This document shows positions 26,798 through 44,402 of a DNA stretch of 64,000 bases, piece by piece. The notes beneath the pieces are model-generated. The model had not been told where the DNA came from. It was given only the letters and a program-made list of their open reading frames with translations, and did not search any database. Made by a program: the position numbers and the translations under genes. The DNA is taken from assembly GCA_963770835.1 (NCBI GenBank), contig CAVYRH010000003.1:356504-420503 (forward strand), in the 5' to 3' direction. Numbering within the stretch: the stretch's first letter is position 1; each line of letters starts with the position of its first letter. Source of the stretch: an uncultured Pseudomonadota bacterium (GTDB taxonomy: Bacteria > Oederibacteriota > Muellerivitia > Muellerivitales > Muellerivitaceae).

Positions 26798-26834
26798 CCT
26801 GCACATGCCTGTCGCAAAAAGGATAGTGTGCAAC
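26798..26834 (+). repeat. 37-bp array repeat R1 (variant A)
   Basis: CCTGCACATGCCTGTCGCAAAAAGGATAGTGTGCAAC. Confidence 0.97.
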
Positions 26835-26835
26835 C

Positions 26836-27318
26836 GAAGTGGTGTCGGGTGAGAATCTTAAAGGTGAAAAACTTACCGGCGGTGAAATAGCAGTTGCGGC
26901 ACTAAGTGTGGTTCCTACCGAAGGCATTTTGGCAAAACTGGGAAGTTTAATTAAAGACCTTCCCTTGGTTGGGAAGTTGTTTTTAAAAGAGGGAGGCTTA
27001 GAAGCCAAGAGTGCAATTGCGAGTGTAAAACTTAAAAATCAGTTAGTAGCGGCAGAAATAGCTGGTGGGCATGCGTTCAAAGACCACGTTGCCCAATTCA
27101 GTCACCTTGGTGTAAACACGAGGGAAGAATTTGCAGCTCATATAGAAGGTGTGATTAATAATCCCACAGAAGTTAAGTCGCTTGCAAATGGTAGAACAGC
27201 ATATTTTGACTCGAATACTGGAACTGTAGTTATCAGAAATCCCAATGCGGGACAGGAAGGAACTGCGTTTATTCCAGATCGTGTTACTCCAAAGGAATAT
27301 TTTAATGGCTTACATTGA
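26836..27318 (+). pseudogene. 5'-truncated polymorphic toxin C-terminal tip (CdiA/Rhs-CT-like, probable RNase)
   Basis: GHAF..HV, GRTAY.D...GTVVIRNP....GTAF.P; frame begins at R1 with no N-terminal delivery domain. Confidence 0.65.
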
Positions 27319-27634
27319 TCGTGCTGGCGATGAAGGAGGTCGTTTGACGGAAACGGAAGCCGGGATTATTAAGGAATGTCTTATAGCTGCTGTCAAAGGG
27401 CCTTTTTTTCCGGAGTATGTGTTTCAAACTATTATTGGTTGGGACCGTGTAGAAGTTGATTCGGTACTTCGTCAGTGGCCGCAAAATAGTAATGATCCTA
27501 AAGTTAGGATGATCGTAAAAAATGTTTTGTTAAATCTTTTTGCCTATCCTCACCATAAAGAAGAGGAATTGAAAAAATATATTTCGACAGATGCAAATGA
27601 AATACGGCAATTAGGTAAAAAAATTGGTGAATAA
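27305..27634 (+). CDS. Putative cognate immunity protein
   Basis: Small ORF overlapping the toxin stop codon. Confidence 0.55.
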   Translation: MAYIDRAGDEGGRLTETEAGIIKECLIAAVKGPFFPEYVFQTIIGWDRVEVDSVLRQWPQNSNDPKVRMIVKNVLLNLFAYPHHKEEELKKYISTDANEIRQLGKKIGE

Positions 27635-27662
27635 AAAACACGTATGGTCGCAGACTAAAAAA

Positions 27663-27699
27663 CCTGCACATGCCTGTCGCAAAAAGGATAGTGTGCAAC
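27663..27699 (+). repeat. 37-bp array repeat R2 (variant A)
   Basis: Identical to R1. Confidence 0.97.
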
Positions 27700-27721
27700 T
27701 GAAGTCGAACGGGCATGCCTT

Positions 27722-28760
27722 TGACCGGCCCCCCAAGTTTGTGCCACCAATTAAGTCACTCCCGGAGTAGGAGTTCCTGAGGTCGTCATGGGCAAGGTGT
27801 TGCCTTTGGGCCCCATGACGACCGCCTCCGGGGCAGGCGGTTTATACCCCAGAGAGCTGTGCGGCCGTTTCGTATTGTACTCCTTCCTCCACCTCTCAGC
27901 GAGCACTCGGCCTTCCCACACCGTGTCGAGCAGTTCGCCGTTCAATAGTTCGTCCCTGAATTTGCCGTTGAAGCTTTCGTTATAGCCGTTCTCCCAAGGG
28001 CTTCCCGGTTCGATGAAAAGGGTCTTTACTCCCACCTTCGGGAGCCAGTCCTTCACCCTCTCCGCTGTGAATTCAGGCCCATTGTCGGAGCGGATGTGCT
28101 CCGGCACTCCCCGTTGGACGAACAAGTCCGTCAGCACTGCCTGCACGTCGTCCGCCGTAAACTTCCGAGCTACCGGCAGGGCCAGGCATTCACGGGTGAA
28201 CTCATCGATCAGCGTCAGGAACCGAAGAGGCCGTCCGTCGCTGGTCCTCTCGGCGACGAAGTCATAGCTCCAAACGTGGTTGGGGTGTTCCGCCCTCAAC
28301 CTGACACAGGAACCATCCGTAAACCACAACCTCCTTCGTTTCGGCTGTTTTTTCGGTACTTTCAACCCTTCCTGCTTCCAAATCCTTTCCACCCGCTTCT
28401 TGTTGACCCTCCAGCCCTCCTCCTGAAGCATCTTGGTAATCCGCTTATACCCATACCGCCCGTACTGGCAGGCCAGCCGGAGAATGGCGGTCGTCAGGAG
28501 GTCCTCATCGGGCAGGATCTGAGGGATATATCGCTGGGTGCTCCGGGGTTGGCCGAGGGCCCGGCATACGCGCCGCTGGGAGGCTCGGTGGGTTTCACAC
28601 GCTTCCCGAACCGCTTTTCGGCGCTTTTCCGGGCTTAGGAGTTTCCCCGGGCCAAGTCTTTCAGGATGCGGTTATCCAGGGAGAGGTCGGCCACCACCCG
28701 CTTGAGCTGGGTATTCTCTTTCTCCAATTCCTTTAGGCGTTTGGCCTGGTCCAGCTTGAG
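27722..28760 (-). mobile_element. IS3-family element truncated at its left end
   Basis: orfB DDE motifs (WSYDF, SDNGPEF, GSPWENG..ESFNG), orfA tail LKLDQAKRLKELEKEN, probable IR TGACCGGCCCCCC at 27722; orfA cut at R3. Confidence 0.92.
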
Positions 28761-28797
28761 CCTGCACATGGCCCTCCCAAAAAGGATGGTGTGCAAC
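28761..28797 (+). repeat. 37-bp array repeat R3 (variant B)
   Basis: CCTGCACATGGCCCTCCCAAAAAGGATGGTGTGCAAC; 5 substitutions vs variant A. Confidence 0.95.
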
Positions 28798-28841
28798 TTT
28801 GAAAGCCTTTGAGTTAATTATTGGTTTCAATAGGATTTAAA

Positions 28842-28857
28842 GGTGACTTAAGTCACA
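28842..28857. promoter_or_regulatory. Crp/Fnr-family (HcpR/CRP-type) binding site
   Basis: gGTGA-cttaag-TCACA upstream of norB. Confidence 0.7.
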
Positions 28858-28920
28858 GTATTGTTGAGAATTATGTCTTAAAAAGAATACGAATTTTAAT
28901 ATCTTGGCGGGAGGCGGCTG

Positions 28921-31182
28921 GTGGAAATTTCCAAAGCTTGGCGGCATGCGGCGGTATTGGTTGTCATTATTGGATTTTCAGTTTTGATGTTCATGGGGAA
29001 AAAAGTTTACGAAAACGCTCCTCCTATACCCGCCAAGGTGGTTGAGGCTTCTGGAAAAGTCCTTTTCACCGGAGAGGATATCTTGACAGGCCAAGCCGTT
29101 TTCCAGCAATACGGCCTTATGGATTACGGTTCTATCTTTGGTCATGGTGCCTATCGTGGGCCCGATTTTACGGACGACTACATGCACCGCTCGGCCTGGA
29201 TTCAGCGCGACGAGAAGGCCGAAGAGGAATTCAAACAGCCTTATGGAAATCTTTCGGAAAGTGAAAAAGCGAAAATCGGTCAGATGGTGATTTCGGACGC
29301 GAAAACCAACCGATACGATGAAAACACACAGACTTTAACCCTTACTCAAGAACAGGCTCAAGCATGGCCTCCCCTGGTTACCCATTACGTTGATGTTTTC
29401 ATGAACAGTGGGGAAGACCACAGCCTTCCAAAAAATTACATCAAAACCACGGATGAAGTCCAAAAACTCACCGATTTCTTCGCCTGGACCGCTTGGACGG
29501 CATCGACCCAAAGACCCGGAAAAAATTACAGTTACACCAACAATTGGCCGCCTGAGGATGCTGTCGGGAACCGGCCTACCAGAGCCGTATTCCTTTGGAG
29601 TGTCCTTTCATTGATCTCTTTGTTGGGGGGATGCGCTTTGGTCCTGTTGTTTTTTGGCCGTTTCGATTACTTAGGGTGGGGTGGGGATGAGCCCGCGATA
29701 AAGAAAAGCATTCCGTTAAAAGATTTCAAAATCACTCCCAGCCAGGTGGCGACTTATAAATATTTCCTCATTGTGGCGTTGCTTTTTTCTTTCCAAACCC
29801 TCATGGGTGTGTTCACGGCTCACTATTTCGTAGAAGCCACGGGATTTTATGGATTAGATATCCGGGATATCCTGCCCACCACTATCACCCGCACCTGGCA
29901 TTTACAGCTTTCCATATTTTGGATCGCCACTGCTTGGCTGGCGGCTGGATTATTCATCGCTCCCTTCATTGGCCAAAGAGAACCTAAATACCAAGCCTTC
30001 TGGGTGAACGTCCTCTTTGGCGCGGTGGTATTGGTGGCGGTTGGTTCCATCGTTGGTGAATATTTGGGCATCAAGGCCAAGCTTGGACAGTATTGGTTCT
30101 GGTTCGGGCATCAAGGTTGGGAATATTTGGAACTGGGTCGCTTCTGGCAAATCCTTTTGACCGCTGGCATGGGTATTTGGGCAGTGTTGGTGCTTCGAAC
30201 GGTTTGGGGAAGGCTTAAGGGGCAGGATTGGGGCAGTTTGCCTTACCTTCTCGTTTACGGCATCCTGGCTATTCCCTTGATGTTCTCGGCGGGTTTGCTT
30301 TACACCCCGAGAACTAATTTCGCTATCGCCGATTTTTGGCGTTGGTGGGTGGTTCATTTGTGGGTGGAAAATTTCTTTGAACTATTCACTACCATCGTAG
30401 TGGCGTACTTCTTCGTTATCCTTGGTTTAGTGACAACCAAAACCGCTGTCCGGGTGGTTTACTTGGATATAATCCTTTATTTGGGATCGGGACTCATCGG
30501 TACGGGCCATCATTATTACTGGACTGCCCAACCAGCCATCAATCTGGCCTTGGGAGCCTTCTTCTCGGCCATGGAAGTGGTTCCTTTATTGCTCTTGACC
30601 CTTGAGGCTTATGACTTCGCCAAGCTCAGGAGAGGGGAGGCAGGCACGAAGGAATCGGACGGATTTTTCGCCCATTACTGGGCGATTATGTTCCTGATTG
30701 CGGTCGGCTTTTGGAACTTCGTAGGAGCCGGAATATTTGGTTTCCTTATCAACCTGCCTATTGTCAGCTACTACGAACACGCCACCTACTTAACGCCAAA
30801 TCACGCCCATGCGGCCTTGATGGGGGTTTACGGCAACCTGGCCATCGCTGCCTTAGTGTTCGTCCTGCGGTTCCTGGTCAAGCCTGAGCACTGGTCCAAC
30901 CGTTTATTAAAAATCTCCTTTTGGTCCCTGCAAATCGGCCTGATGATGATGCTATTACTGGATATTTTCCCGGTGGGGATTTTGGAGATGGTCCAGAGTT
31001 ACACGCGAGGCTACTGGTTTGCCCGAAGCGTGGATTTCTGGAGCCAACCCATCGTCCAAAAACTTACTTGGGCCAGGATGGCAGGCGACCTAACTTTCGT
31101 CGTTGGCGGAGTTTTGCCTCTTCTCTACTTCACGGTTAGATCGATGTTTTATTTGAGAAAACCGGACGCCAATCCGGAATGA
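28921..31182 (+). CDS. norB: Quinol-dependent nitric oxide reductase (qNor)
   Basis: GSI.GHGAY.GPD, YTNNWP, RTWHLQL, WWVVHLWVE..FE, GTGHH, HAHAA. Confidence 0.95.
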   Translation: MEISKAWRHAAVLVVIIGFSVLMFMGKKVYENAPPIPAKVVEASGKVLFTGEDILTGQAVFQQYGLMDYGSIFGHGAYRGPDFTDDYMHRSAWIQRDEKAEEEFKQPYGNLSESEKAKIGQMVISDAKTNRYDENTQTLTLTQEQAQAWPPLVTHYVDVFMNSGEDHSLPKNYIKTTDEVQKLTDFFAWTAWTASTQRPGKNYSYTNNWPPEDAVGNRPTRAVFLWSVLSLISLLGGCALVLLFFGRFDYLGWGGDEPAIKKSIPLKDFKITPSQVATYKYFLIVALLFSFQTLMGVFTAHYFVEATGFYGLDIRDILPTTITRTWHLQLSIFWIATAWLAAGLFIAPFIGQREPKYQAFWVNVLFGAVVLVAVGSIVGEYLGIKAKLGQYWFWFGHQGWEYLELGRFWQILLTAGMGIWAVLVLRTVWGRLKGQDWGSLPYLLVYGILAIPLMFSAGLLYTPRTNFAIADFWRWWVVHLWVENFFELFTTIVVAYFFVILGLVTTKTAVRVVYLDIILYLGSGLIGTGHHYYWTAQPAINLALGAFFSAMEVVPLLLLTLEAYDFAKLRRGEAGTKESDGFFAHYWAIMFLIAVGFWNFVGAGIFGFLINLPIVSYYEHATYLTPNHAHAALMGVYGNLAIAALVFVLRFLVKPEHWSNRLLKISFWSLQIGLMMMLLLDIFPVGILEMVQSYTRGYWFARSVDFWSQPIVQKLTWARMAGDLTFVVGGVLPLLYFTVRSMFYLRKPDANPE

Positions 31183-31216
31183 CGAAGAAACGTTAGGGGA
31201 AAAAGGGTCCTGAATC

Positions 31217-31702
31217 TTGAAACGTGAAAAATTTCTTTGGCCGTTGACCCAAGGACACCATGGGGCGCTGGTGGCGGCCCGGAATATCCGAGACCGCCTT
31301 TCCAAGCTGAACGAAGGTGAAAAAAATACCCTAGTTGTCTTGAGCCAAGAAATCTCGGGCCTTTTTGCTAGAGATTTAGAACCGCATTTTCGCGGGGAAG
31401 AGGAAGAACTCCTAAAGGTTTTTGAAAATCATGTAGGATCGGATGATTCGGACATTAAAAAAATATTGCAAGACCATCAAACCATCCGAGCCTTATCAAC
31501 GTCAGTGACCCAAAAAGATCTTCAACTCTTTGCCGATACTCTTACCGCCCATATCCGTTTTGAGGAGGATGTTTTTTTCCCCAGAGTGGAAAAAACCCTG
31601 ACTGAGGAAGAAAAAGACCGTGAGACGAAAAAGTTACTTCCTTACAAACCTGCCGAGACTCATGTCCCCCACCGCTTGACCGAAAAACCAACCGATAAAT
31701 AA
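31217..31702 (+). CDS. Hemerythrin-domain protein
   Basis: HH, HF..EE, H, HIRFEE..FP. Confidence 0.85.
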   Translation: MKREKFLWPLTQGHHGALVAARNIRDRLSKLNEGEKNTLVVLSQEISGLFARDLEPHFRGEEEELLKVFENHVGSDDSDIKKILQDHQTIRALSTSVTQKDLQLFADTLTAHIRFEEDVFFPRVEKTLTEEEKDRETKKLLPYKPAETHVPHRLTEKPTDK

Positions 31703-31719
31703 ATTGGAGTCTTCCCATT

Positions 31720-32388
31720 TTATTTTTTTAAAAAAACTTCCAAACCTTTAACATTGGTTAGGCTTGCGTTTCGTTGTTTATCAATCGAAATGAACCCTCC
31801 CTTTTCAAGCTTGGCTAAAGCCCTTGAAACGACTTCCCGAACCGACCCCAGCCGCGCGGCAATGACGGAAATGGGCGGCAATTTTAGTTTTTTTAATTTT
31901 TTATCCCTGAATTCCTGCAACAAAAAGGCTGCTAAACGTTGATCGACTTCCTTTAGGGAAAGGGATTCAACAAGGGCCGCTGTTTTACGAAGACGGGAAG
32001 CCATCAGCTTCAAGGCGGAAAGGGCGATAGCGGGGTGTCTCAAGCAAAGCCTTTTGACATCCTCCCTGGAGATGAAAAGCACTTCGCTTTCTTCCTCGGC
32101 ACGGACTGAAGAGGGATAAGGTTCATCATCAAAGGTAGGTACTTCGGCGATGGTGGTTCCGGCCTTTTCCAAGTGGATGATTTGCTCCCGCCCTTCAGTG
32201 TTATCCCGATAGGCCCTTAAGGAACCCTTGGCGATGACATAAAGGCCTCTGGCCTTATCCCCGGATATGAAGAGAACCTCCCCTTTTTTCAGCCTCTTTT
32301 CCACACAAACACCAGCAATAACGCCCAGTTCATCCGGCCCGAGAGAGCCAAACATTTCCGTTTTTTTCAAGGAAGCAATCTTATCCAT
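31720..32388 (-). CDS. Crp/Fnr-family transcriptional regulator
   Basis: cNMP-binding domain; HTH LGSVREVVSRAL. Confidence 0.92.
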   Translation of the reverse strand: MDKIASLKKTEMFGSLGPDELGVIAGVCVEKRLKKGEVLFISGDKARGLYVIAKGSLRAYRDNTEGREQIIHLEKAGTTIAEVPTFDDEPYPSSVRAEEESEVLFISREDVKRLCLRHPAIALSALKLMASRLRKTAALVESLSLKEVDQRLAAFLLQEFRDKKLKKLKLPPISVIAARLGSVREVVSRALAKLEKGGFISIDKQRNASLTNVKGLEVFLKK

Positions 32389-32437
32389 TTGCCCATCATA
32401 TCGTTGGAGAAGGGTTTCCTCAAGAATAGGGTCTTTT

Positions 32438-32453
32438 AGTGACTTGAGTCACG
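32438..32453. promoter_or_regulatory. Crp/Fnr-family binding site
   Basis: GTGA-cttgag-TCAC between regulator and ric. Confidence 0.7.
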
Positions 32454-32512
32454 GCGTCAAGAACCCTTGGGGCTTAAATTGAAACCGTAAGAAGGACACA
32501 AGGAGATTCAAA

Positions 32513-33259
32513 ATGAAAACAGAAACCAAAAAATTCGAGGCCGACAAAACGGTGGGGGATATCGCTTCCGAATTTCCGAGGACTATACCACTTTTTGAGG
32601 GTTTGAAAATCGATTACTGCTGTGGGGGAGCCCGGTCATTGAGGGAGGCCTGTTCGTTAGTGGGCGTTCCGGTAGAGAAGGTTGTTTCGGATTTAGAGAG
32701 GCTTGAGGCCGAATCGAATCAGGAGGAGGTATTACCCGATTGGAAGACCCAAACTATGGCCGAATTGATCGACCATATCCTGGGAAAGCATCATGCTTTT
32801 ACACGAACCCAACTAAGCCGCCTAAAGGCTCTTTCGCAAAAGGTCGAGGGAGTTCATGGCGGCAACCATTCCGAACTTTGCCGATTGGAGGAGATCATCA
32901 ATGAAATGTCCGAGGAGATGGAAGGACACATGGCGAAGGAAGAAGAGCAAGTTTTCCCCTATCTGAAGGCCCTGGAAGAGGCAAACGGCAAAAAAGAAGG
33001 TATTCCCAATCCTTTCGAAGGGGGGCCTTTGGAGAATCATCCTTTAAAAATCCTGATGTGGGAACACGGCATGACGGGAGAGGAATGGATTGAGATCCAT
33101 AAGATCACAAACGATCTCACCGCTCCTGCCGACGCCTGCCGGTCTTACAAAGCACTTTACTTAGGATTGAAGGATTTGGAGGACGATTTGCATCAACACG
33201 TCCACAAGGAAAACAATGTTCTTTTCCAGAAGTCCATTCATAACGGCTGGTTGGATTGA
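32513..33259 (+). CDS. ric: Iron-sulfur cluster repair di-iron protein (Ric/YtfE/ScdA)
   Basis: IDYCCGG, HH, HM.KEE..FP, HVH.ENN.LF. Confidence 0.93.
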   Translation: MKTETKKFEADKTVGDIASEFPRTIPLFEGLKIDYCCGGARSLREACSLVGVPVEKVVSDLERLEAESNQEEVLPDWKTQTMAELIDHILGKHHAFTRTQLSRLKALSQKVEGVHGGNHSELCRLEEIINEMSEEMEGHMAKEEEQVFPYLKALEEANGKKEGIPNPFEGGPLENHPLKILMWEHGMTGEEWIEIHKITNDLTAPADACRSYKALYLGLKDLEDDLHQHVHKENNVLFQKSIHNGWLD

Positions 33260-33309
33260 AATTTTGAAGATAAACGAGAATACTGAAAAACTAAATCAAG
33301 GAGGAAGAC

Positions 33310-33768
33310 ATGAAACGTGAAAAATTCCTGTGGCCTATAACCCATGCCCACCATTTCGGATTGATGACGGCCAAAACGCTTCAAAGGATGTTGGAAAAAA
33401 AACCTTCGAAGAAGGAACTGGAGGAATTGAAGCGAAAAGCTGAAAGATTCTTCAAGTCGGACTTGGAAGCGCATATCGGTGTGGAAGAGAAGATGTTAGA
33501 TCAACTCGCTTTCCATAAGGGTTCTGATGATCCATTATTGGCCCGGTCCCGGCGGGAGCATAAGGAGTTAAACCAACTGTTAAAAACGAGAAATTTGAAA
33601 TCGTTAAAATTGTTCGCTGAAAAACTCATCCAACACATTTATTTCGAGGAAGATAAGTTGTTCAAGGAAATCGAGGACCAATTCACACAGGCAGAAAAAG
33701 AGTGGGTGGAGACTGAAATTCAATTCAACATCCATGATTGGCCCAAAATTCCCGCGTTTAAAAATTAA
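33310..33768 (+). CDS. Hemerythrin-domain protein (paralog of 31217)
   Basis: Shared MKREKFLWP.T..HH N-terminus; HI.FEE. Confidence 0.8.
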   Translation: MKREKFLWPITHAHHFGLMTAKTLQRMLEKKPSKKELEELKRKAERFFKSDLEAHIGVEEKMLDQLAFHKGSDDPLLARSRREHKELNQLLKTRNLKSLKLFAEKLIQHIYFEEDKLFKEIEDQFTQAEKEWVETEIQFNIHDWPKIPAFKN

Positions 33769-33778
33769 GGAAGGCATC

Positions 33779-34126
33779 ATGCAACCGGAAATCCCGCCTA
33801 AAACAAAAGGCCTTCCAGGCGCTGAAGTCGCGAAGGCCGCCGAGTTAGTGAACTACCAGGAAGGTTCCGTTGTCAGCCGGGAAATTGTCAAGAAAACGAC
33901 TGGAACCGTAACGATTTTTGCATTCGATGAGGGACAAGGGTTGAGTGAACACACAGCCCCATTCGACGCGCTCGTACAGGCATTGGAAGGCGAGGTGGAA
34001 ATAAGCATTGCGGGCAAGCCTTATCACCTGCATTCCGGCGAGATAATTCTGATGCCAGCGAAACAGCCGCACGCCCTTAAGGCGTTGAAGCGGTTCAAAA
34101 TGATTCTCACAATGATTCGGTCTTAA
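33779..34126 (+). CDS. Cupin-domain protein
   Basis: FAFD.GQ.LSEHTAP.DA, MPA..PHAL. Confidence 0.88.
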   Translation: MQPEIPPKTKGLPGAEVAKAAELVNYQEGSVVSREIVKKTTGTVTIFAFDEGQGLSEHTAPFDALVQALEGEVEISIAGKPYHLHSGEIILMPAKQPHALKALKRFKMILTMIRS

Positions 34127-34150
34127 GCCTTAACCAAGAAAGGTAGGGTC

Positions 34151-34816
34151 ATGCGTCAAATACTCATTGTTCATGGTTCTATGGATGAGCGCTTTGAAGT
34201 GTTTTTCTCCAAGGTATTCCGTGCGGTGGCGGTTAAAACGGTTTGGGTAACCTATAAGGACCTCGTGGGAGGGCCTGCCTCAAAGGATAGAATCCAAAGG
34301 GAAATTCTAGAGTCGGACGCCTTGTTTTTCGTCCTCAGTAAGGATGAGGAAGTTTCCTCGCAAGCCAAGAACTGGTTCCCTTGGGCTACCACCCTTGCTA
34401 AAGAGAAAGATATTTGGGTTTTTGAGCATTGCGAGGATTTGAAACGCGTCCCTGTTTTGATCCCCAACCTTGGGCATTATGTAGCTTATTACATTACCAA
34501 TGCCTGGTGCGATTACGTCACGAAGTTTGCCGAAACTTACGAAAAACCAAAAGCTGCTGGGCCCGTCTTGCCCGAGGCCTTATTAAAACCGCTGACTCCG
34601 ACAGAAGAAGGATCATTCTTTGATCCCTCCACGGGGTTCGCTTTTTTCGACGATTCAACAGCCAGGCCTATTGGATTAAAGGCCGTCTGTCCGGCCTGCT
34701 CCGGAGTTTACAGTCTGCATATTCCTTCCGAAATGAAGGCCATCCGGTGCCCTTCTTGCGGTCATCTTTATGGTATCCAGCAATCCCCTAAAGCATCTAT
34801 ACCGGCCAAAGCGTGA
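34151..34816 (+). CDS. Hypothetical protein with C-terminal zinc ribbon
   Basis: CPAC...CPSC. Confidence 0.6.
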   Translation: MRQILIVHGSMDERFEVFFSKVFRAVAVKTVWVTYKDLVGGPASKDRIQREILESDALFFVLSKDEEVSSQAKNWFPWATTLAKEKDIWVFEHCEDLKRVPVLIPNLGHYVAYYITNAWCDYVTKFAETYEKPKAAGPVLPEALLKPLTPTEEGSFFDPSTGFAFFDDSTARPIGLKAVCPACSGVYSLHIPSEMKAIRCPSCGHLYGIQQSPKASIPAKA

Positions 34817-34881
34817 CGGGCCAAATAAAGTTACCCGCTGGACGAATTTTGAATGGAATCAATCAAGTAGGGAATTCGGAC

Positions 34882-36299: not shown

Positions 36300-36352
36300 T
36301 TAAACTCCTAAACTTTTGTAGTTTTAGAATGCTTCAATTAGCGATTTATCGA

Positions 36353-36368: not shown

Positions 36369-36602
36369 CTTTGTCAAAATTTCGCGAAGGAGGAAATGGC
36401 TTATTTTAGAGTCAGATAATAATTAAAAAGATCATTAGGCTTTCTTTGGCTCAAAATCTGGTGACCCTTCCTATGTCATTTGGTGTCATATACGTGTCAT
36501 TCGAATTCGGTTTTTACCGGAGGGACTACCAATTTAATCATGAAGTCCGTTCAGTGGGGTCCGGGCCTTGGATCGGCCCGGCGGCTTTCGCCTTGTGAAA
36601 AA

Positions 36603-36639
36603 CCTGCACATGGCCCTCCCAAAAAGGATGGTGTGCAAC
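36603..36639 (+). repeat. 37-bp array repeat R4 (variant B)
   Basis: Identical to R3. Confidence 0.95.
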
Positions 36640-36852
36640 TAATTCCCCGGGAATTCGGCTTTGAAGCTTTCCATTGGAACCTGAAAGACGTCAGGGATTT
36701 GATCCTGAAAAAATGGGGGATCCATTTCCATCAAGGGAGCATTGGCTGGCAATTCAGGAAAAGGGGTTGCAAGCTTGTCCCGATTGGTCCGGGTGAACCT
36801 CCCAACACCTCAAACTCCCGTTACTGGTTCCAAAAATGGGTCGGACCAAAGG
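36640..36852 (+). pseudogene. Internal fragment of IS630-type winged-HTH protein
   Basis: PREFGF...HWNLKDVRDLILKKWGIHF....I...FRKRG; bounded by R4 and R5. Confidence 0.55.
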
Positions 36853-36889
36853 CCTGCACATGCCTGTCGCAAAAAGGATAGTGTGCAAC
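36853..36889 (+). repeat. 37-bp array repeat R5 (variant A)
   Basis: Identical to R1. Confidence 0.97.
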
Positions 36890-36934
36890 TGAGTTTGTCG
36901 GCCCGAAGGCAAGGAACTGTGGAATGCTCTGGTC

Positions 36935-37369
36935 ATGGGAAAATATTGGTCAGGCGCACATACCAGACACCGACTGCAATATCACCTCGTTTGGATACCC
37001 AAGTATCGGAAACGAGTCTTGCTTGGCAAAGTTGCCGTCCGCCTGCAAGAGCTGTTTAGAGAGGCGGCCCACGTCAACCGTTGGGTAATCCACGAATTGA
37101 ATATTCAGCGAGACCACGTGCATATGCTGATCCAGGTTGAGCCAAAGGTGAGTGTGGCTAAAGTGGTGCAGGTGCTAAAAGGCGGTACAAGCACCAAGAT
37201 CAGGCGTGAGTACCCTGAACTTGAGGAGTTTCTCTGGGGGGATAGTTTTTGGGCGGACGGCTACTTTGCGGAAAGTATAGGCACTGTGCAGGAGGAGATG
37301 ATCCGCAAATATATCCGCGAGCAACAGCATGACCAGAGTATGCCGAAAGGTAGAAACCCCGGGCTTTAG
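36935..37369 (+). CDS. tnpA: IS200/IS605-family HUH (Y1) transposase
   Basis: YHLVWIPKYRK, DHVH, LKG.TS, FWADGYF, YI..Q; hairpin CCCCGGGCT-TT-AGCCCGGGG at 37357-37376. Confidence 0.95.
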   Translation: MGKYWSGAHTRHRLQYHLVWIPKYRKRVLLGKVAVRLQELFREAAHVNRWVIHELNIQRDHVHMLIQVEPKVSVAKVVQVLKGGTSTKIRREYPELEEFLWGDSFWADGYFAESIGTVQEEMIRKYIREQQHDQSMPKGRNPGL

Positions 37370-37471
37370 CCCGGGGAGATTCATTAGCAAATAAACTAAC
37401 TTTCTTGAATCGAACCTTTTTGGGGGATAATTACCAAACAAGTTTCTTGTCCAATAATTTTGGGAGTGAAA

Positions 37472-37753
37472 ATGGCCGATAAGAAAAGAATTATTGTGAA
37501 TGTTTTTTTTGTGCTGATAGTACTATTGGCGGGAATTGCAGCTCTCTTTTTATTTTTTTTAATGCCGGTAATACATTCTAAGTTTGCAATTTTCCATGAA
37601 TATGGATTTTTGTGGCCTCTTTTTTACATTCTTTTTATTGTTTTATACTTTTTTGTTTTTTTTAAGTTGATCATTTGGTTATTAATCAAGTTTGTATATA
37701 TGAAAATTATTGCTTGGATTGACAGAACAGACCCCCAAAGAAAAATCCCTTGA
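37472..37753 (+). CDS. Small hypothetical membrane protein
   Basis: Two TM segments, AT-rich. Confidence 0.55.
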   Translation: MADKKRIIVNVFFVLIVLLAGIAALFLFFLMPVIHSKFAIFHEYGFLWPLFYILFIVLYFFVFFKLIIWLLIKFVYMKIIAWIDRTDPQRKIP

Positions 37754-37792
37754 GGGTTCGAGGTTCAAAAACGCTTTTCCAGAGGAAGTTAA

Positions 37793-38530
37793 TTGAATAA
37801 CACTTTTAAAATACTGGGATTCTTTTTTCTTTCTACGGCCCTGTTCTTTATTCAGAACCCAAGCCAGGATTTTGGAAATATCGGGTCGGTTGTCTCTGCC
37901 ATTCTGGCGATTGTTTTCCTTATAGGTGGTTTCAAATATCCGGGTGCCCTTAAAAAAATCTCGATTTTCCTCCTGCTTGTTTTTTTGGGAGCGTGCATCC
38001 CCGTTTTTCTTTTTCCGGTTGTGGAAATACTGACGGGATTCCAGGTGTATAGCCAGTTGGTATCTAATAATTGGAAGCTTATAAGTGCGATTTTAGGCGC
38101 CTTATTTTCCCCTTCCTTTTGGTATTTGTTTCGTCGAATCAACCCGGACTGGAAAAGGTTGGCTGGCGGCATCCTTATATGGACGATTCTTTCGGGAATT
38201 ATCCATTTTCTTTTTTTAGACCAGAGTTCGTACGCCTACCGGCGCATGGACGGTGGACTTAGGTTGAAGGGGAATGTTTACTACCGTACAAAACATTTTA
38301 ATGATATCGACATCCTAGCCAACTCGGGGACACTTATTAAGGTCGTGGAGGTTCCTGGAAACATCTTAAGCCAGGTTTGGAAATATGACCCAACCAGAGT
38401 CTTGATCCCGCAAGGAAAAGCGGTTCAGGTCGATTTTGATGTCCTTAATACAAATCGGACAAATCTGATGGTGTTTAGGGGATCAAACTCCATCCAAGTA
38501 ATGGAGGGTAAAACCAATATCGGCAAGTAA
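37793..38530 (+). CDS. Hypothetical membrane protein
   Basis: Several TM segments plus soluble C-terminus. Confidence 0.6.
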   Translation: MNNTFKILGFFFLSTALFFIQNPSQDFGNIGSVVSAILAIVFLIGGFKYPGALKKISIFLLLVFLGACIPVFLFPVVEILTGFQVYSQLVSNNWKLISAILGALFSPSFWYLFRRINPDWKRLAGGILIWTILSGIIHFLFLDQSSYAYRRMDGGLRLKGNVYYRTKHFNDIDILANSGTLIKVVEVPGNILSQVWKYDPTRVLIPQGKAVQVDFDVLNTNRTNLMVFRGSNSIQVMEGKTNIGK

Positions 38531-38541
38531 AAGTCCGATGG

Positions 38542-39855
38542 GTGCCTGAAATAGCGAATACGGCATTAAAAAAAACCCAAGGTATCCGTGTTACCCATCC
38601 TTGGATCGGGAAAATCCTTACTTTTTTCATGGTCTTTGGACCGGGATTGATCGTGATGGAAGCCGACAATGACGCGGGAGCTGTTTCCACCTATACCCAA
38701 GCGGGCGCGCAGTATGGAACCGGCCTTCTATGGCTTTTACTGATCCTGCTCCCGGTGTGTTATTTCATCCAGGAGATGGTGGCCCGGTTGGGAATCGCCA
38801 CGGGCCAGGGCCATGCCGCCATGATTTATAAGCGGTTTGGAAAATGGTGGGGTCGATTCTCTTTGATCGATCTCCAATTGGTTAATTTCCTGACTCTAGT
38901 CACCGAATTTGCGGCCATTAACCTTGCCACCTCCAAAATGGGATTGTCCCCAATGGTTACCGTCCCTGTTGTGGCGGTAGGAACACTCGTGATGGTTTTG
39001 ACCGCTAGTTACCGGCGATGGGAAGCTATCACTCTCTTTCTTTGCTTACTGGACATCGCATGGATCGCTTATGCCATTCATCTAGGTCCTTCCTTGGGCA
39101 CAGTGCTCCAAAAAACTGTTACTTTTTCCGCCCCTTTAAAAGGATTCACGACAGACTATGTCTTTTTGGTCATCGCAATCGTTGGAACCACCATTGCCCC
39201 TTGGCAGCTTTTTTTCCAACAGAGTTGTGTGGCGGATAAGCGATTAAGATTTGCCGATCTGGGCTCGGCCCGGTTGGATACCTTTATTGGAGCGGTTTTC
39301 ACCATCGTGGTAGCCGGGTGCATGATGCTTGTTGGGGACGCCGCCACCCGAACAACAGCCGGATATGTTTATTCAGATCCAGCTCAAATGGCCGAATCCT
39401 TGGGGCTCCATTTCGGCCCTATCGTTAAAAGCGGTCTTTTGATGCTGATGTGCAACGCGGCGGTATTGGGAACCACGGCCATTTCACTTTCCAGCGCTTG
39501 GGCCTATGGGGAAGTCATGGGATGGCCCAGTAGCCTGGAGTTGAAGCCTCGACAAGCTCCTGGTTTTTATGCCGTTTACGTTTTGGTGGTCTTAGCGGCG
39601 GCGGGTCTGGTACTAATCCCCCAGGCTCCACTTCAACTCATCATTATGGGCGTTCAGGTCCTGGCGGGAGTCATGCTTCCCTCAGCCATCATCTTTTTGC
39701 AATTGCTTTTGAATGATAAAGAATTGTTGGGGGAGCGATTCGCCAATAAGCCCTGGAACAACTGGGTGAATTGGACCATCATCCTCGTCCTTTTCTTCCT
39801 TTCCCTGGTTTTAGCGGTGCAAGTCATGTTGCCTCGATTGTTCGCCCAATCTTAG
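38542..39855 (+). CDS. NRAMP-family divalent metal transporter
   Basis: GPGLI...ADNDAG...TY.Q.GA.YG, QEMV.RLG, GTTI.PW..FFQQS. Confidence 0.9.
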   Translation: MPEIANTALKKTQGIRVTHPWIGKILTFFMVFGPGLIVMEADNDAGAVSTYTQAGAQYGTGLLWLLLILLPVCYFIQEMVARLGIATGQGHAAMIYKRFGKWWGRFSLIDLQLVNFLTLVTEFAAINLATSKMGLSPMVTVPVVAVGTLVMVLTASYRRWEAITLFLCLLDIAWIAYAIHLGPSLGTVLQKTVTFSAPLKGFTTDYVFLVIAIVGTTIAPWQLFFQQSCVADKRLRFADLGSARLDTFIGAVFTIVVAGCMMLVGDAATRTTAGYVYSDPAQMAESLGLHFGPIVKSGLLMLMCNAAVLGTTAISLSSAWAYGEVMGWPSSLELKPRQAPGFYAVYVLVVLAAAGLVLIPQAPLQLIIMGVQVLAGVMLPSAIIFLQLLLNDKELLGERFANKPWNNWVNWTIILVLFFLSLVLAVQVMLPRLFAQS

Positions 39856-39881
39856 AAAACAAATCAAAAGGAGTCGTCGCG

Positions 39882-40103
39882 ATGAAAAACAACTCAAGCA
39901 CAGTGAAGAAAGAAGAATCTTTCTTGGTCATTCATCCATTGGACGATGTGCAGGAACAAAAGATGGACCCAAATGGTTTGGGGGCCATGGGGATGACTCC
40001 ATTGGTAAAGGGCTCTTTGATCACCCTGAGGGTTTATTTGATATTAATGGTGTTGATGATGATTTACCACGTTTTGGACTTAGCGGGGGTTTGGAAGATT
40101 TGA
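39882..40103 (+). CDS. Small membrane protein
   Basis: AAGGAG RBS; C-terminal TM. Confidence 0.6.
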   Translation: MKNNSSTVKKEESFLVIHPLDDVQEQKMDPNGLGAMGMTPLVKGSLITLRVYLILMVLMMIYHVLDLAGVWKI

Positions 40104-40271
40104 TTTCTTTTGTGCATGAGAAAGGGGGGCTTTTGTTCTTTTTGAATTCGATGACGTTTTTTGCTCACAGGTCGAAAGTGAAAGCCGTTTTGACCGTGGT
40201 TATTATTTTATTTTGCTTTGGTGCTAACCGAACGCTTTGGGCCGAGGATACAGCCAGCACTGAGGTATTTA

Positions 40272-40308
40272 CCTGCACATGCCTGTCGCAAAAAGGATAG
40301 TGTGCAAC
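40272..40308 (+). repeat. 37-bp array repeat R6 (variant A)
   Basis: Identical to R1; cuts a signal-peptide ORF (..LWAEDTASTEVF) on its left. Confidence 0.97.
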
Positions 40309-40309
40309 C

Positions 40310-40672
40310 CAAACAATTTCGGAATTTGATTATTTTGAAATCCCTCTTTTGGCGCGATATCAGCTTCCGTTTAATTGGGCGATCAAACCGAGCATCTTTG
40401 TAGGACCAAGTTTCGCAATTCTTACAGGTGTTAACCAAACATTTAATCAATCTGGCGCGCCAAGCTATTCCAGCAACAGTAGCAGTGGTTTTTCATCTAC
40501 AGAGTGGAGCGTTACAGGTGGTCTGGAAGCGGATTGGGAGAACTGGCTTTTAAACATTCGTTACACCCAGGGGTTAACTCAAATGAATACTATGCCCGCG
40601 TCATCGGGTTCAGTTTATATCGGCGCCCATAACATAACCTTTTCGATTTTAGCGGGTTATAGGATTTGGTGA
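40310..40672 (+). pseudogene. 5'-truncated outer-membrane beta-barrel (PorT-like) fragment
   Basis: DYFEIPLLARY, IFVGP, RY.QGL, terminal GYRIW; frame starts at R6. Confidence 0.7.
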
Positions 40673-40722
40673 CATTCAAAGTACTAAAGAGTCTGAAAAA
40701 GCCATCTAAAGGCGAAGCAATT

Positions 40723-42060
40723 ATGAAAAACCAAAGAAAAAATCTCATCGTTTTTTTTACATTGGCAACATTTTGGCAACTGCAAACTGCTATTGCTGAT
40801 GTTTTGGTATCCGAAAGCCAACCGCAATTTTTGAAAAAGGAAAGCCTAAAAGACTTCAATAAAAATAACTCCGTTCGTGTGGGGATAGATAATCCTTTTG
40901 AAAAACTTGGGAAAGTGGAATTGATTTACCTGGATAGATTTTCGGAACTTTTGAAAATATTGCCTGTTAACGCACACAAAACAAGTTTTCTTACCTTCAG
41001 TTCCGACGAAGATGGAAAATATTTTGCAATTAATACCGACCTTGGGAATTTTTTGGTCAGCTATGAAACCAAATCAATTGTTTTTGAATTGCTGCCACCC
41101 TACACACAAAAGGTAATTTACGTCAGCCCCAACTCAAAATATTTTGTGCTGGCGACGGAACAAGATGGAATCAGCTTTACCGACTTCTACGACCTTTCCA
41201 CAAAAGATAAAGTTTTTACGGCGGATGGGGATTTGATGGTTGACCACTTTATGGGCGCCGATGACGGATATGTTTTTGGAAACTATAAAGGCCGTGATGG
41301 TTTGATCGATTTAAAGAACCCAAAAAAATTCAGCCAAATTTCTCCTGACGACGTGCCACGCCCAGGTCAGTACAGTTCATTAGGACCGGACCGGGTTTTA
41401 GGTTATTCGGAAAAGTTGGACCAAATGGTTATTTGGGATCTTCCCTCAATGTCGGTTGAGAAAAGCTTTGAATCGCTTCCCAAAGGCGTTCCGTTTTCAA
41501 ACAACTCCGGAACTATCGTCGGTTCTTTTGACGAAAACAAAGTGTTTTTCTGCGATCTAAAAAGTGAAACAGTAAAGGGGTTTGCGTTTAGCAATTTGGA
41601 CCAAAATATCTTTATGGAAATGGCCCCAGGTAAAAGAAGGGTCAAAACCATCAAAGAAGGTGTCGCGGGTTGGCGGACTTTTGATACTTTCGAAGTTGTG
41701 AAAATGCATGACGTTGCGAAAAATGAAACTAAGGAATTCTCGCCCTCGGATGAAGGGGACCAAAAGAAAACGGAAATGCACTTAGCCCGAAGCGAGGGAA
41801 CTGGAAACTATTTCGTTGTGAGCGGAGTGGACCCTGATGAGAGTGGCGATGGGTTTTATGTGAGGTTCACATTGTGGTCCGAGGGGAAAAACGCAAAGCC
41901 TCCTTGCTCCCAGATAGCCCATTTCGACGGCAATTTGAATTTGGATAAAATCATTCATTTTTCAGTTCCTTTACTTCCCAGCTACAAATTTGATTCGAAG
42001 ACCGACAGAATTTTAGGGATCAGCCGCGATGGGATACACTACAAATTTGATTTAAAGTGA
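40723..42060 (+). CDS. Secreted beta-propeller-like hypothetical protein
   Basis: Signal peptide; beta-rich, SPNSKY and IWDL motifs. Confidence 0.6.
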   Translation: MKNQRKNLIVFFTLATFWQLQTAIADVLVSESQPQFLKKESLKDFNKNNSVRVGIDNPFEKLGKVELIYLDRFSELLKILPVNAHKTSFLTFSSDEDGKYFAINTDLGNFLVSYETKSIVFELLPPYTQKVIYVSPNSKYFVLATEQDGISFTDFYDLSTKDKVFTADGDLMVDHFMGADDGYVFGNYKGRDGLIDLKNPKKFSQISPDDVPRPGQYSSLGPDRVLGYSEKLDQMVIWDLPSMSVEKSFESLPKGVPFSNNSGTIVGSFDENKVFFCDLKSETVKGFAFSNLDQNIFMEMAPGKRRVKTIKEGVAGWRTFDTFEVVKMHDVAKNETKEFSPSDEGDQKKTEMHLARSEGTGNYFVVSGVDPDESGDGFYVRFTLWSEGKNAKPPCSQIAHFDGNLNLDKIIHFSVPLLPSYKFDSKTDRILGISRDGIHYKFDLK

Positions 42061-42063
42061 TTT

Positions 42064-43326
42064 ATGAAGCCCAATAAAAAAATTTCTTATTTAACATTTT
42101 TTTTCATTTTCCTTTTGGCGAAAAACATTTTCGCGCAGTGTGGAATATCGATCTCTTTATCGGATCCGCCAGATGGGGGATGTACTGCGGTGGGTACAAG
42201 TGGATCGATCACAATATCTGGAACAACAGGTGGTGTGTCCGATGATGCAATTGTAACAATTCACTATGGGAATAATTTAACAACCACAAGTGTTTCGAGC
42301 GATAAGTTTAGCCAAATAGTTTCTTTGTCGGCTTCCGATAATTCTTTTGGCATAACGGCTATTGTTAGCCAGGATTGTTCTGTCTGCTGTGACGACTCAA
42401 GCCCATGCACTGACATGAGTTGCACCGATTCACAGTCAGTGACAGCTACAAGTTCATATACTTATCAATTGCAACCGGACATCAGTATCGATAGCCCGCC
42501 AGATGGTGACACAAAATCAGTTGAGGGGCCGAATTATTTTTTCACGGTCAGTGGTAGTACAACTAACGTTCCATCGGGCACGAATATAATTATTTCAGGC
42601 GGTATTGCGGCAGTTACTGCTACAACTTCGGTGTCAGGGACATTTTCCCATGCTGTTACCATCCAGCCTTCGTCTTCGTCCATCGACATTACCGCTTCGG
42701 TTAGCACTGGGGCATGTGGTTCAGCATCGGATACAGCCACAGTCAACTATTCCTGCCTTATGCCTTCCGTCAACATTACCTCACCAGCGGATAATACGGT
42801 ATTGACCGGGACATCCGCCACCACGGTAATTTCCGTTAGTGGAACAACAACAAATATTCCTGTCGGAACCACCGTCACGATAATCGCGGGAAGTGTGACA
42901 ATTTCCGCTCTAGTGCAAAACGGAGGTTCTTTCAACGGTTCTATTTCAATACCACAATCATGTAATTCGGTTGCTATTTCCGCGTCGGCTGATGTGGGTA
43001 GCTGTGGTACCCCCACTAGTTCCGTGAATTTTGAATACACTATTTCTGCTCCAACATTGAATATCATCTCCCCGTATCAAGGGGTAACTATTGGGGCCTC
43101 ATATCCACAACCCACGCCAACACCCTTTGCCGGAACCGATGATTCACTCTCCCTTCCTGTTACTGGGACCACAAACGCACCTGACGGCAGCCAGGTTGCC
43201 ATAACCGGTTCTGGAATTTCAGAAGTTGATACATCCGTTTCTAACGGGATGTTTGAGGCTACAATCCAAATTCCCCCTACGCATAACTACATAAATGCCT
43301 GCACATGCCTGTCGCAAAAAGGATAG
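42064..43326 (+). pseudogene. 3'-truncated secreted protein with tandem Ig-like repeats
   Basis: Four I.SP.D...VSGTT repeats; last residues CTCLSQKG* are supplied by R7. Confidence 0.75.
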
Positions 43327-43334
43327 TGTGCAAC
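43298..43334 (+). repeat. 37-bp array repeat R7 (variant A)
   Basis: Identical to R1. Confidence 0.97.
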
Positions 43335-43478
43335 ATATTGAGCTGTTTCCCAAAGTGAGAAACAGCAATAAGCCCCATAATCTCTTGGCACTTTTTAAAT
43401 TTTTAAAAACTTCGCCATTCATTAACAAACGCCTTTCAATCTACTAACTGTTGCCCAAAAGTTACTTTTCAAAAATAT

Positions 43479-43964
43479 CTATCGGTTAAAATATTTTTTA
43501 ACTTTTCCCAAAACAGAAGGTGTAATTTCCACATTTGGGTTATTTTTTTGTGCAAAATGTACCGCATCCACTAAAATCCTTAAATGATTGCTAGTCCAGA
43601 GAAAACTAACCATGACACCCCCGCGTTTAAAATCGATGTAGTAATTCCACGACCAATAAGCGCGTCTATAAATGCCAACAACTTCACTCCAAGGCCAAAA
43701 ATTTTCATCTTTTGGCTTAAATGAGTTTTTCATCGTGACTCCACTCTCGTCATAGGTCCATCGAGGGGTTAATGCTCGATTAAAAGCCACCAAAAATAAA
43801 AACAGACCAAAGACAACTATTAAGATTGGTTTCGTGATTTCGGCATCTGGTTCCCCCAATTTCTTCACAAGAACAAAAAGGCTCATCCCTAAAAAAAGTC
43901 CCATGAGCAAAACAGTGAATTTAGATCCATAAACTTTTGTGTTTTTCATTTCAAACCACTTCAC
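43479..43964 (-). CDS. Hypothetical membrane protein (immunity-like position)
   Basis: Two TM + PH-like soluble part, downstream of a truncated hydrophobic ORF. Confidence 0.55.
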   Translation of the reverse strand: MKWFEMKNTKVYGSKFTVLLMGLFLGMSLFVLVKKLGEPDAEITKPILIVVFGLFLFLVAFNRALTPRWTYDESGVTMKNSFKPKDENFWPWSEVVGIYRRAYWSWNYYIDFKRGGVMVSFLWTSNHLRILVDAVHFAQKNNPNVEITPSVLGKVKKYFNR

Positions 43965-43991
43965 TTAATCTTTAAAATTGAAAAAGAAAAA

Positions 43992-44219
43992 TCACGGTCC
44001 TGAAAACCACCCACTAATGGTGCTTATCGCATTGTTTATTACGGGAGCGGCTTGTTGTTGAATATATTTCCAACCTGCCGATGCCGCGGTCGAACCGGCA
44101 ACATAGGCAAGGGGTGCAAGCGCTTGTGTTCCCTCTTCCACCAGCGGAGCCAAAGGCCCCGAAACTGAGGCCAATGCTGCTCCCCCTGCTTCCAATGCGC
44201 CAACGGCCAAATCACTACC
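43992..44219 (-). pseudogene. C-terminal fragment of Gly/Ala-rich (Rhs-tip-like) protein
   Basis: GSDLAVGALEAGGAALA...GWFSGP*; frame begins at R8. Confidence 0.45.
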
Positions 44220-44256
44220 CCTGCACATGCCTGTCGCAAAAAGGATAGTGTGCAAC
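44220..44256 (+). repeat. 37-bp array repeat R8 (variant A)
   Basis: Identical to R1. Confidence 0.97.
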
Positions 44257-44365
44257 TACAAAATCCGTTCAATTGAAATTATACGATATAAATAATGAAT
44301 TAATTGGTAACAACAACCTTGGATTCAGTGGGGTTAATTTGGACACAATTTTTTTAGGCCGGTTT

Positions 44366-44402
44366 GTTGCACACTATCCTTTTTGCGACAGGCATGTGCA
44401 GG
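44366..44402 (-). repeat. 37-bp array repeat R9 (variant A, inverted)
   Basis: GTTGCACACTATCCTTTTTGCGACAGGCATGTGCAGG = exact reverse complement of R1. Confidence 0.97.

What the first reader, a model, noticed from the sequence alone, without database searches (positions are those of the whole stretch)
26798..44402. Candidate new DNA-capture array: 37-bp repeats separating 0.1-7.8 kb fragments of unrelated DNA
Seen: the 37-mer occurs at 26798, 27663, 28761, 36603, 36853, 40272, 43298, 44220 (direct) and 44366 (inverted). The intervening segments are 828, 1061, 7805, 213, 3382, 2989, 885 and 109 bp and are mutually unrelated. Identity stops sharply at both repeat edges and I see no target-site duplications. 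Known: CRISPR repeats have similar length but ~30-40 bp spacers and cas genes; integron cassettes hold whole genes with variable attC sites; dif modules use 28-bp Xer sites. None fits. Inference: a mechanism that joins arbitrary DNA pieces at a fixed site and leaves one repeat per event, i.e. a repeat-spacer array with kilobase spacers. The catalyst must act in trans or lie outside the window, unless it is the IS200 TnpA.
Basis: partly seen in the sequence, partly recalled or inferred. Interest (0 to 1): 0.95.

Follow-up and report, generated by a model that had tools for sequence, protein, structure and literature searches.

The report
CRISPR integrase array with kilobase inserts
The 37-base repeats belong to a CRISPR-type DNA-inserting enzyme pair (Cas1-Cas2) encoded elsewhere in the same soil-bacterium genome; between them lie arbitrary 0.1-8 kb pieces of DNA instead of ~35-base virus snippets, including a complete nitric-oxide reductase gene cluster matching a related genus letter for letter.

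Summary
The nine repeats are real (seven identical, two a 5-mismatch variant). The genome holds 27 copies in four clusters. Four sit 22 bp behind a cas1 + divergent cas2 pair outside the window, so the 37-mer is that module's CRISPR-type repeat; the IS200 is cargo. No effector or ordinary CRISPR array was found in this genome. Across 113 repeat sites in 7 related genomes the only recurring flank is the cas2 end. All 30 other junctions with a second copy are open cuts with 0-2 nt overlap. Five of 68 inserts map end to end onto one contiguous donor. The window's 7.8-kb insert matches another genus's chromosome at 100% over 7,723 bp, starting at its first base. Both sides of the repeat show the same strand-symmetric end bias (r=0.67). 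Best reading: a ruler-less Cas1-Cas2 joins both ends of almost any DNA fragment to the repeat and duplicates it; this cas-less array probably arrived by recombination through captured flanks. The scan found this system before in Patescibacteria; eight paper searches found no description. New here: a non-CPR host, traced donors, the end signature. No biochemistry and no read-level check.

The parts
26448..26797 (+). Left flank: 3' end of a resident gene plus a low-complexity stretch, cut at an arbitrary base; probably a captured arm recombined into the chromosome
   Evidence: 98-100% identical to G014 per 50-bp window versus 27-38 of 50 just upstream; runs on without a repeat in G014 and G027, and is cut 99 bp earlier next to a repeat in G030
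26798..26834 (+). 37-bp repeat, variant A (same as the copy behind cas2)
26835..27662 (.). Insert 1, 828 bp, GC 0.41, two ORFs without Pfam or PADLOC hit; no donor found
27663..27699 (+). 37-bp repeat, variant A
27700..28760 (.). Insert 2, 1061 bp: 22-23 bp from the middle of cas1, then an IS3-type element cut in mid-sequence
28761..28797 (+). 37-bp repeat, variant with 5 changes; a common form in G023, G027 and G030
28798..36602 (.). Insert 3, 7805 bp: nitric-oxide reductase NorB (753 aa, open), hemerythrin proteins, Crp/Fnr regulator, ScdA/RIC-type protein, cupin; 28798-36520 is 100% identical to G004 chromosome, the last 82 bp are 96% identical to window 54628-54709
36603..36639 (+). 37-bp repeat, 5-change variant
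36640..36852 (.). Insert 4, 213 bp; only 76-79% matches in relatives
36853..36889 (+). 37-bp repeat, variant A
36890..40271 (.). Insert 5, 3382 bp: IS200 TnpA (36935-37369) as cargo, Nramp transporter; first 1304 bp overlap two inserts of the other array on this contig, which have different ends
40272..40308 (+). 37-bp repeat, variant A
40309..43297 (.). Insert 6, 2989 bp: outer-membrane beta-barrel gene cut at its 5' end, two further ORFs, the last running into the next repeat
43298..43334 (+). 37-bp repeat, variant A
43335..44219 (.). Insert 7, 885 bp: lies inverted inside a 971-bp repeat-bounded insert of G004, 43 bp short at each end
44220..44256 (+). 37-bp repeat, variant A
44257..44365 (.). 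Insert 8, 109 bp, GC 0.30, between head-to-head repeats
44366..44402 (-). 37-bp repeat, variant A, inverted
44403..54209 (.). Right flank: mobile-element region (toxin-antitoxin pairs, ArdC, RadC, SpoVG-like genes) cut inside its first gene; G004 has it at the same locus with that gene whole
   Evidence: 97-99.5% to G004; junction; Pfam

Best explanation
The 37-mer is the cognate CRISPR-type repeat of an effector-less module: intact Cas1 plus a divergent Cas2, encoded at three other places in this genome and acting on this array from outside, or before the array moved. SHOWN: the repeat directly follows cas2; inserts are 30 bp to at least 14 kb, cut at arbitrary bases from contiguous donors (mobile elements, relatives' chromosomes, the cas locus itself, other arrays); repeats are almost all direct; both sides show the same strand-symmetric end bias. 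INFERRED: Cas1-Cas2 grips two DNA ends with AT-rich, probably frayed 3' tips, attacks the two edges of the repeat as in CRISPR adaptation, and repair duplicates the repeat; the spacer-length ruler is lost. A free fragment becomes a giant spacer. Two ends on the same chromosome would give deletions, small circles or inversions, which accounts for repeats joined to mid-cas1, the duplicated cas1'-cas2 block and the inverted copy. INFERRED, weaker: the window's cas-less array was installed by recombination through its captured outer fragments.
For: Repeat 22 bp behind cas2 in 4 of 27 genomic copies. Cas1 scores 251 bits on TIGR00287; E162, H222, E237 are invariant in 16 of 16 aligned relatives. 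The Cas2-like family hits PF09827 weakly in 14 of 15 members; its 5 PDB matches up to E 10 are two chains named Cas2 and three hypothetical proteins that I recall as archaeal Cas2. The repeat changes with the module: in 15 of 16 loci with a called cas2 a related 37-mer starts 2-22 bp after the stop, and 7 of 16 have 2-8 copies 140-4007 bp apart. Among 31 family genomes the module is in 5, all with repeats; none of the 24 without repeats has it. Of 113 sites only the cas2 end recurs as a flank; 30 of 30 other junctions with a second copy are open, overlap 0-2 nt. 5 of 68 inserts map full length to one donor stretch. 69 of 71 neighbouring pairs are direct. End bias r=0.67, p=2e-6 in register, 0.08 for the uncomplemented mirror, null maximum 0.53 (94 and 112 ends); the -5 A, -4 low G, -3 low C pattern recurs in 35 ends from distant loci.
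Against: No activity was measured and no reads were laid across the junctions. The window's array has no cas genes or cas2-end leader, so activity in place is not shown. No structure of the Cas2-like protein was obtained; it is below the Pfam cut-off and a genome-wide PF09827 search missed it. 63 of 68 inserts have no full-length donor among the DNA compared. Nine of 16 module loci show one repeat only, three of them with 3.8-9.6 kb of downstream sequence. G023 and G025 have repeats but no module found (90% and 89% complete). Lone repeats with foreign DNA on one side exist (G004). Insert 3 ends in 82 bp that its donor lacks. The end-bias profiles also correlate at 0.50-0.56 at some offsets, because both tips are AT-rich.
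Confidence: 0.8

Rival explanations
1. One-ended joining. Cas1-Cas2 joins single DNA ends to one edge of a repeat, or bridges two unrelated broken ends (a repair-like linker), and arrays build up by later recombination rather than by concerted two-ended insertion.
For: Lone repeats between unrelated flanks; repeats joined to mid-cas1 twice in this genome; one inverted copy in the window; nine array heads in relatives keep only 22-243 bp of the cas2 end.
Against: Inserts of 379, 559, 885 and 7247 bp are single donor stretches with a direct repeat on both sides; 69 of 71 pairs are direct; both sides share one end signature.
Confidence: 0.11
2. The repeat is a recombination site for cassettes (integron- or dif-module-like) moved by another recombinase, and cas1-cas2 is a neighbour.
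For: The genome has 12 tyrosine-recombinase matches and a separate palindromic 28-bp site system in which cas1-cas2 rides.
Against: No insert recurs with the same ends at any of 113 sites; ORFs run into the left or right repeat in 21 and 17 of 58 inserts; the repeat follows cas2 and varies with it across distant loci; insert 7 was re-taken with new ends.
Confidence: 0.04
3. The 37-mer is the end of an insertion sequence or transposon, leaving adjacent deletions.
For: The 1504-bp cas1-cas2 unit ends in the repeat in three different contexts.
Against: A transposon end keeps one constant inner flank; here only 16 of 113 sites have the cas2 end and both flanks of the rest vary. The unit's other end is a different 28-bp site, not an inverted copy. 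No target duplication was seen.
Confidence: 0.03
4. Assembly or library artefact.
For: Metagenome-assembled genome; 100% identity to another genus could reflect mixed reads; junctions were not checked against reads, and no run held half of the words of 36000-44600.
Against: Donors lack the repeat at the cut points, so a repeat-induced misjoin cannot create them; the repeat occurs in 7 of 61 genomes in lineage-specific variants and behind cas2 in distant taxa, which an adapter would not do.
Confidence: 0.02

Closest known systems
CRISPR adaptation module (Cas1-Cas2 integrase, leader, repeat-spacer array)
   Same: Cas1 with conserved active-site residues, adjacent Cas2-like gene, 37-bp weakly palindromic direct repeat right behind it, one repeat per junction, arbitrary foreign DNA in between.
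   Different: Inserts span 30 bp to over 14 kb (median spacing 1792 bp) instead of a ruler-set length (PMC10284694, passages); no PAM-like motif on the discarded flank; leader only 2-22 bp; no effector found in this genome; Cas2 has Trp-Glu/Gln/Ser where the usual Tyr-Asp motif is recalled; arrays also stand far from cas genes.
Casposons (Cas1-family casposase)
   Same: A Cas1-family enzyme inserting kilobase DNA at a fixed site and duplicating it; a family 1 casposase integrates 7 nt to ~4000 bp with a 3-bp minimal leader (PMC8464041, abstract and passages).
   Different: Casposons insert themselves through terminal inverted repeats and carry PolB; here the inserts have no terminal repeats, are not the element itself, and a Cas2-like gene is present; the duplicated site is 37 bp, not 13 bp.
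Integron cassette arrays and dif modules (recalled)
   Same: Tandem arrays of gene-sized foreign DNA separated by a short site; most inserts (41 of 56) code on one strand.
   Different: Ends cut through genes, no insert recurs with the same ends, and the linked enzyme is Cas1, not a tyrosine recombinase.
One-ended transposition by ISCR/IS91 or ISEcp1 (recalled)
   Same: Captures adjacent DNA with an arbitrary far end.
   Different: There one flank of the site is constant and the transposase travels with it; here both flanks are arbitrary.

Membership tests
CRISPR-Cas array | Identical direct repeats of about 23-55 bp | tested here: met
   37 bp; 69 of 71 neighbouring pairs direct
CRISPR-Cas array | Short spacers of near-constant length | tested here: not met
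   71 spacings from 30 to 26097 bp, median 1792; only 2 under 60 bp
CRISPR-Cas array | Linked cas1 with intact active site | tested here: met
   TIGR00287 251 bits; E162/H222/E237 invariant; two open copies, one with a TAG, one truncated; linked at other loci, not in the window
CRISPR-Cas array | Linked cas2 | tested here: inconclusive
   Position and weak profile hits fit but scores are below cut-off and no fold was obtained
CRISPR-Cas array | Effector module in the genome | tested here: not met
   No match in G000 for PF03787, PF18019, PF07282, TIGR01865; other effector families were not searched; G014, G027, G030 each have a Cas3 elsewhere
CRISPR-Cas array | PAM next to the protospacer | tested here: not met
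   No shared motif by eye in 30 discarded donor flanks; a weak symmetric bias lies inside both ends instead
CRISPR-Cas array | Transcription and processing into guide RNAs | not testable with these tools
   No RNA run listed
Casposon | Terminal inverted repeats on the inserted DNA | tested here: not met
   Donor-traced inserts end at arbitrary bases
Casposon | PolB and solo Cas1 inside the element | tested here: not met
   The 1504-bp unit holds only cas1 and the cas2-like gene
Integron / dif module | Precise, recurring cassette ends | tested here: not met
   No non-leader flank is shared between any two of 113 sites
Integron / dif module | Linked tyrosine recombinase | tested here: not met
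   None of 12 PF00589 matches lies on the three contigs that bear the repeat
IS terminal repeat | Constant inner flank and target-site duplication | tested here: not met

The most novel reading that the evidence does not exclude
A mobile, two-gene Cas1-Cas2 module serves as an integron-like gene-capture machine: it writes whole functional gene clusters from relatives' chromosomes (here a nitric-oxide reductase cluster) into repeat arrays, also acts in trans on leaderless repeats and on other arrays, and is kept because some captures are expressed and useful.
Probability: 0.35. Interest if true: 0.97.

Novelty: categorically new. Interest (0 to 1): 0.9.

Why it matters
Cas1-Cas2 is known as an enzyme that measures and inserts ~30-40 bp. 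A natural version that inserts DNA of almost any length at one 37-bp site would be a new route of horizontal gene transfer and chromosome rearrangement, a living intermediate between casposons and CRISPR adaptation, and a candidate two-gene tool for site-specific insertion or recording of kilobase DNA. This genome adds what makes it testable: traced donors, exact cut points, an end signature and a 1.5-kb self-contained unit. The parts are CRISPR-derived; the system fails a defining feature of every family tested.

Tried and rejected
Rfam: 0 matches in the window at gathering score. Folding of the repeat: weak terminal hairpin, z -1.4 to -2.4, not diagnostic. IS200 TnpA as catalyst: rejected, it is cargo. 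Repeat inserted alone into intact DNA: in no case were the two flanks of one repeat contiguous in a source. Donor searches in 31 family genomes for four other stretches of this genome's arrays gave no near-identical donor outside G000 (best 84-92%; only 9 candidates scored per genome). My first idea that the left flank is the end of a conjugative element was dropped: in G014 it is followed by cargo genes. PADLOC on 16 insert or neighbour proteins: one DpdB hit and weak Cas4-like hits on a nuclease inside an insert, so no sign of defence enrichment in that small sample. No RNA holder listed. A mistyped degenerate pattern gave 0 of 5 and was redone. Read-level support and a Cas2 structure were not obtained. 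Paper searches gave no description of the system.
Full report
Observation. The 37-mer CCTGCACATGCCTGTCGCAAAAAGGATAGTGTGCAAC is at 26798, 27663, 36853, 40272, 43298, 44220 (+) and 44366 (-); copies at 28761 and 36603 differ at 5 positions. Shuffles give 0.00 expected matches. The genome (4.58 Mb, 26 contigs) holds 27 copies in four clusters: 11 on C3 at 48.6-102.0 kb, the 9 of the window, 4 on C15 and 3 on C16.

The catalyst lies outside the window. Four copies share one upstream flank: the end of a 1504-bp unit with two ORFs, present in three contexts plus one truncated copy. The first ORF is Cas1 (TIGR00287, 251 bits; these four are the only Cas1 matches in the genome); two copies are open and one has a TAG. 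E162, H222 and E237 are invariant in 16 of 16 aligned relatives and fall in the motifs aligned with solved Cas1; that they form the metal site is recalled. The second ORF (111 aa) is Cas2-like: 14 of 15 family members hit PF09827 below cut-off (best 3.7e-5), and the profile's 5 PDB matches are two chains named Cas2 and three hypothetical proteins that I recall as archaeal Cas2. No fold was obtained. In this genome no match was found for RAMP, Cas3-HD, Cas12f-like or Cas9 profiles, and no short-spacer array.

The repeat belongs to the module. Cas1 at 97-100% identity is in 4 of 60 relatives, all of other genera. The repeat family is in 7 of 61 genomes; the Cas2-like gene is in 5 of 31 family genomes, all with repeats, and in none of the 24 without. 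G023 and G025 have repeats but no module was found. Earlier notes on this genome call it FCPU426, and records with near-identical cas1 carry that title, while those at 62-71% are mostly titled Patescibacteria. Of 18 loci examined, 16 gave a cas2 call; in 15 a related 37-mer starts 2-22 bp after its stop. Seven have 2-8 copies 140-4007 bp apart; nine have one copy, several at contig ends but three with 3.8-9.6 kb of sequence behind (L034, L042 and L043 are the same sequence).

What the junctions show. I compared 120-bp flanks of 113 repeat sites (this genome plus 50 fetched stretches of relatives, not their whole genomes). The only flank shared between sites is the cas2 end (16 sites by alignment). 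All 30 other junctions with a second copy are open cuts, with 0-2 nt overlap with the repeat and no shared motif in the discarded flank. Of 68 inserts, 5 map full length to one contiguous stretch: 379, 559, 885, 1081 and 7247 bp. Spacings run from 30 to 26097 bp, median 1792, and 69 of 71 pairs under 30 kb are direct. Read toward each 3' end on its own strand, the two sides share a bias: T high and C low at -3, G low at -4, A high at -5 (94 upstream ends after dropping leader-type and short flanks, 112 downstream ends; r=0.67, p=2e-6; uncomplemented mirror 0.08; null maximum 0.53; some offsets reach 0.50-0.56). The same tendency appears in 35 ends from distant loci (A at -5 in 19). This is what one enzyme holding both ends alike would leave.

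The window's inserts. Insert 3 matches G004, a different genus, at 100% over 7723 bp from its first base; G004 has no repeat in the 19 kb around it. It carries an open norB with Crp/Fnr, hemerythrin and ScdA-type genes, and no second norB match appeared in this genome. Its last 82 bp are not from that donor. Insert 7 lies inverted inside a 971-bp repeat-bounded insert of G004, 43 bp short at each end: an array insert taken again with new ends. Insert 2 starts with 22-23 bp from mid-cas1 and ends in mid-IS3; insert 5 overlaps two inserts of the other C3 array that have different ends. Elsewhere an insert holds queA-tgt housekeeping genes at 70-74% identity to the resident copies. No phage structural family appeared among the 104 proteins given to Pfam. 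In 41 of 56 inserts with ORFs most coding lies on the cas strand (p=7e-4, kin not independent), and ORFs run into the left repeat in 21 and the right in 17 of 58.

How the array came here. Core synteny continues on both sides, with about 8.4 kb between the anchors in G002. The last ~350 bp before the first repeat are 98-100% identical to G014 while the gene upstream is not; G014 and G027 run on there without a repeat. The right flank is a mobile region 97-99.5% identical to G004 at the same locus, cut inside a gene that is whole in G004. I infer that both outer fragments served as homology arms. The variant repeats around insert 3 are a common form in other genera, so part of the array may be a captured piece of a foreign array; yet one of them joins an IS3 that had 100% matches only in this genome among those scored, which leaves activity in place open.

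Mechanism. Shown: module-repeat linkage, arbitrary contiguous inserts, direct repeats, symmetric ends. Inferred: CRISPR-type attack of two 3' ends on the two repeat edges, repeat duplication by repair, no length ruler; ends on the same chromosome give deletions, circles or inversions. The order cas1-cas2-repeat-12 kb-repeat-cas1'-cas2-repeat on C3 fits a small circle re-entering by recombination followed by a new insertion at the first repeat (inference). Whether the captures are adaptive is open: the strand bias and the intact norB cluster favour use, the many cut genes and IS pieces favour a largely blind process.

Comparison and novelty. It works like CRISPR adaptation and casposon integration but fails a defining test of each (spacer length, effector; terminal repeats, PolB), and of integrons and IS ends. 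PMC8464041 (abstract and search passages seen) shows a casposase integrating 7 nt to ~4 kb; PMC10284694 (passages seen) describes ruler-set length for Cas1-Cas2. Other papers were seen only as search listings; no supplements were read. Eight searches found no description; the library lacks most subscription papers. The scan has reported this system in Patescibacteria (10 notes in at least 7 genomes; 9 genomes by sequence); my reading was written down before I saw them. A word search for the FCPU426 case with donors found none.

Verdict. Real, not an artefact by every sequence test available, and best explained as a cas-less satellite array of a ruler-less Cas1-Cas2 integrase. Confidence in the two-ended integration mechanism 0.8; interest 0.9.

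Noticed in passing
window 55492-55519 and 56383-56410; 86 sites genome-wide: A second site system: a 28-bp palindrome with 11-6-11 layout, mostly co-oriented and 0.3-3 kb apart, bounding gene-sized cassettes on many contigs. The cas1-cas2 unit starts exactly at one such site in three contexts.
   Followed up: partly
window 43335-44219 versus L052:6851-7821: Exactly 43 bp missing from each end of a shared insert; one case, about 1 in 100 by chance after the fact; unexplained.
   Followed up: partly
G014, G023, G027, G030: Nine repeats are preceded by only 22-243 bp of the cas2 end, with non-repeat DNA before that; four of the breakpoints follow TTC. How these array heads move is unexplained.
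   Followed up: partly
L002:13382-14815: An ORF reads through a repeat in frame, fusing a GmrSD N-terminal domain to a FecR-domain fragment: captures can create chimeric genes.
   Followed up: no
window 36484-36520: The point where insert 3 leaves its donor resembles (92% over 37 bp) a sequence next to a tyrosine integrase on contig C1; possibly the end of an integrative element.
   Followed up: partly
window 26586-26797: Low-complexity stretch of short ATACC-containing units, near-identical in three other genomes of other genera and cut next to a repeat in two independent cases.
   Followed up: partly
   Followed up: no
window 44403-55490: Mobile region with several toxin-antitoxin pairs, ArdC, RadC and three SpoVG-like genes in repeated blocks, shared at 97-99.5% with G004.
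   Followed up: partly
G000:C3:97310-98334 (L003): A perfect low-period tandem repeat of about 1 kb inside an Rhs-bearing insert; may be an assembly feature.
   Followed up: no
L067 (G023:C12:144426-144455 and 145607-145644): Two inserts of 30 and 38 bp, ordinary CRISPR size, in an array whose other inserts are 1.1-3.4 kb.
   Followed up: no
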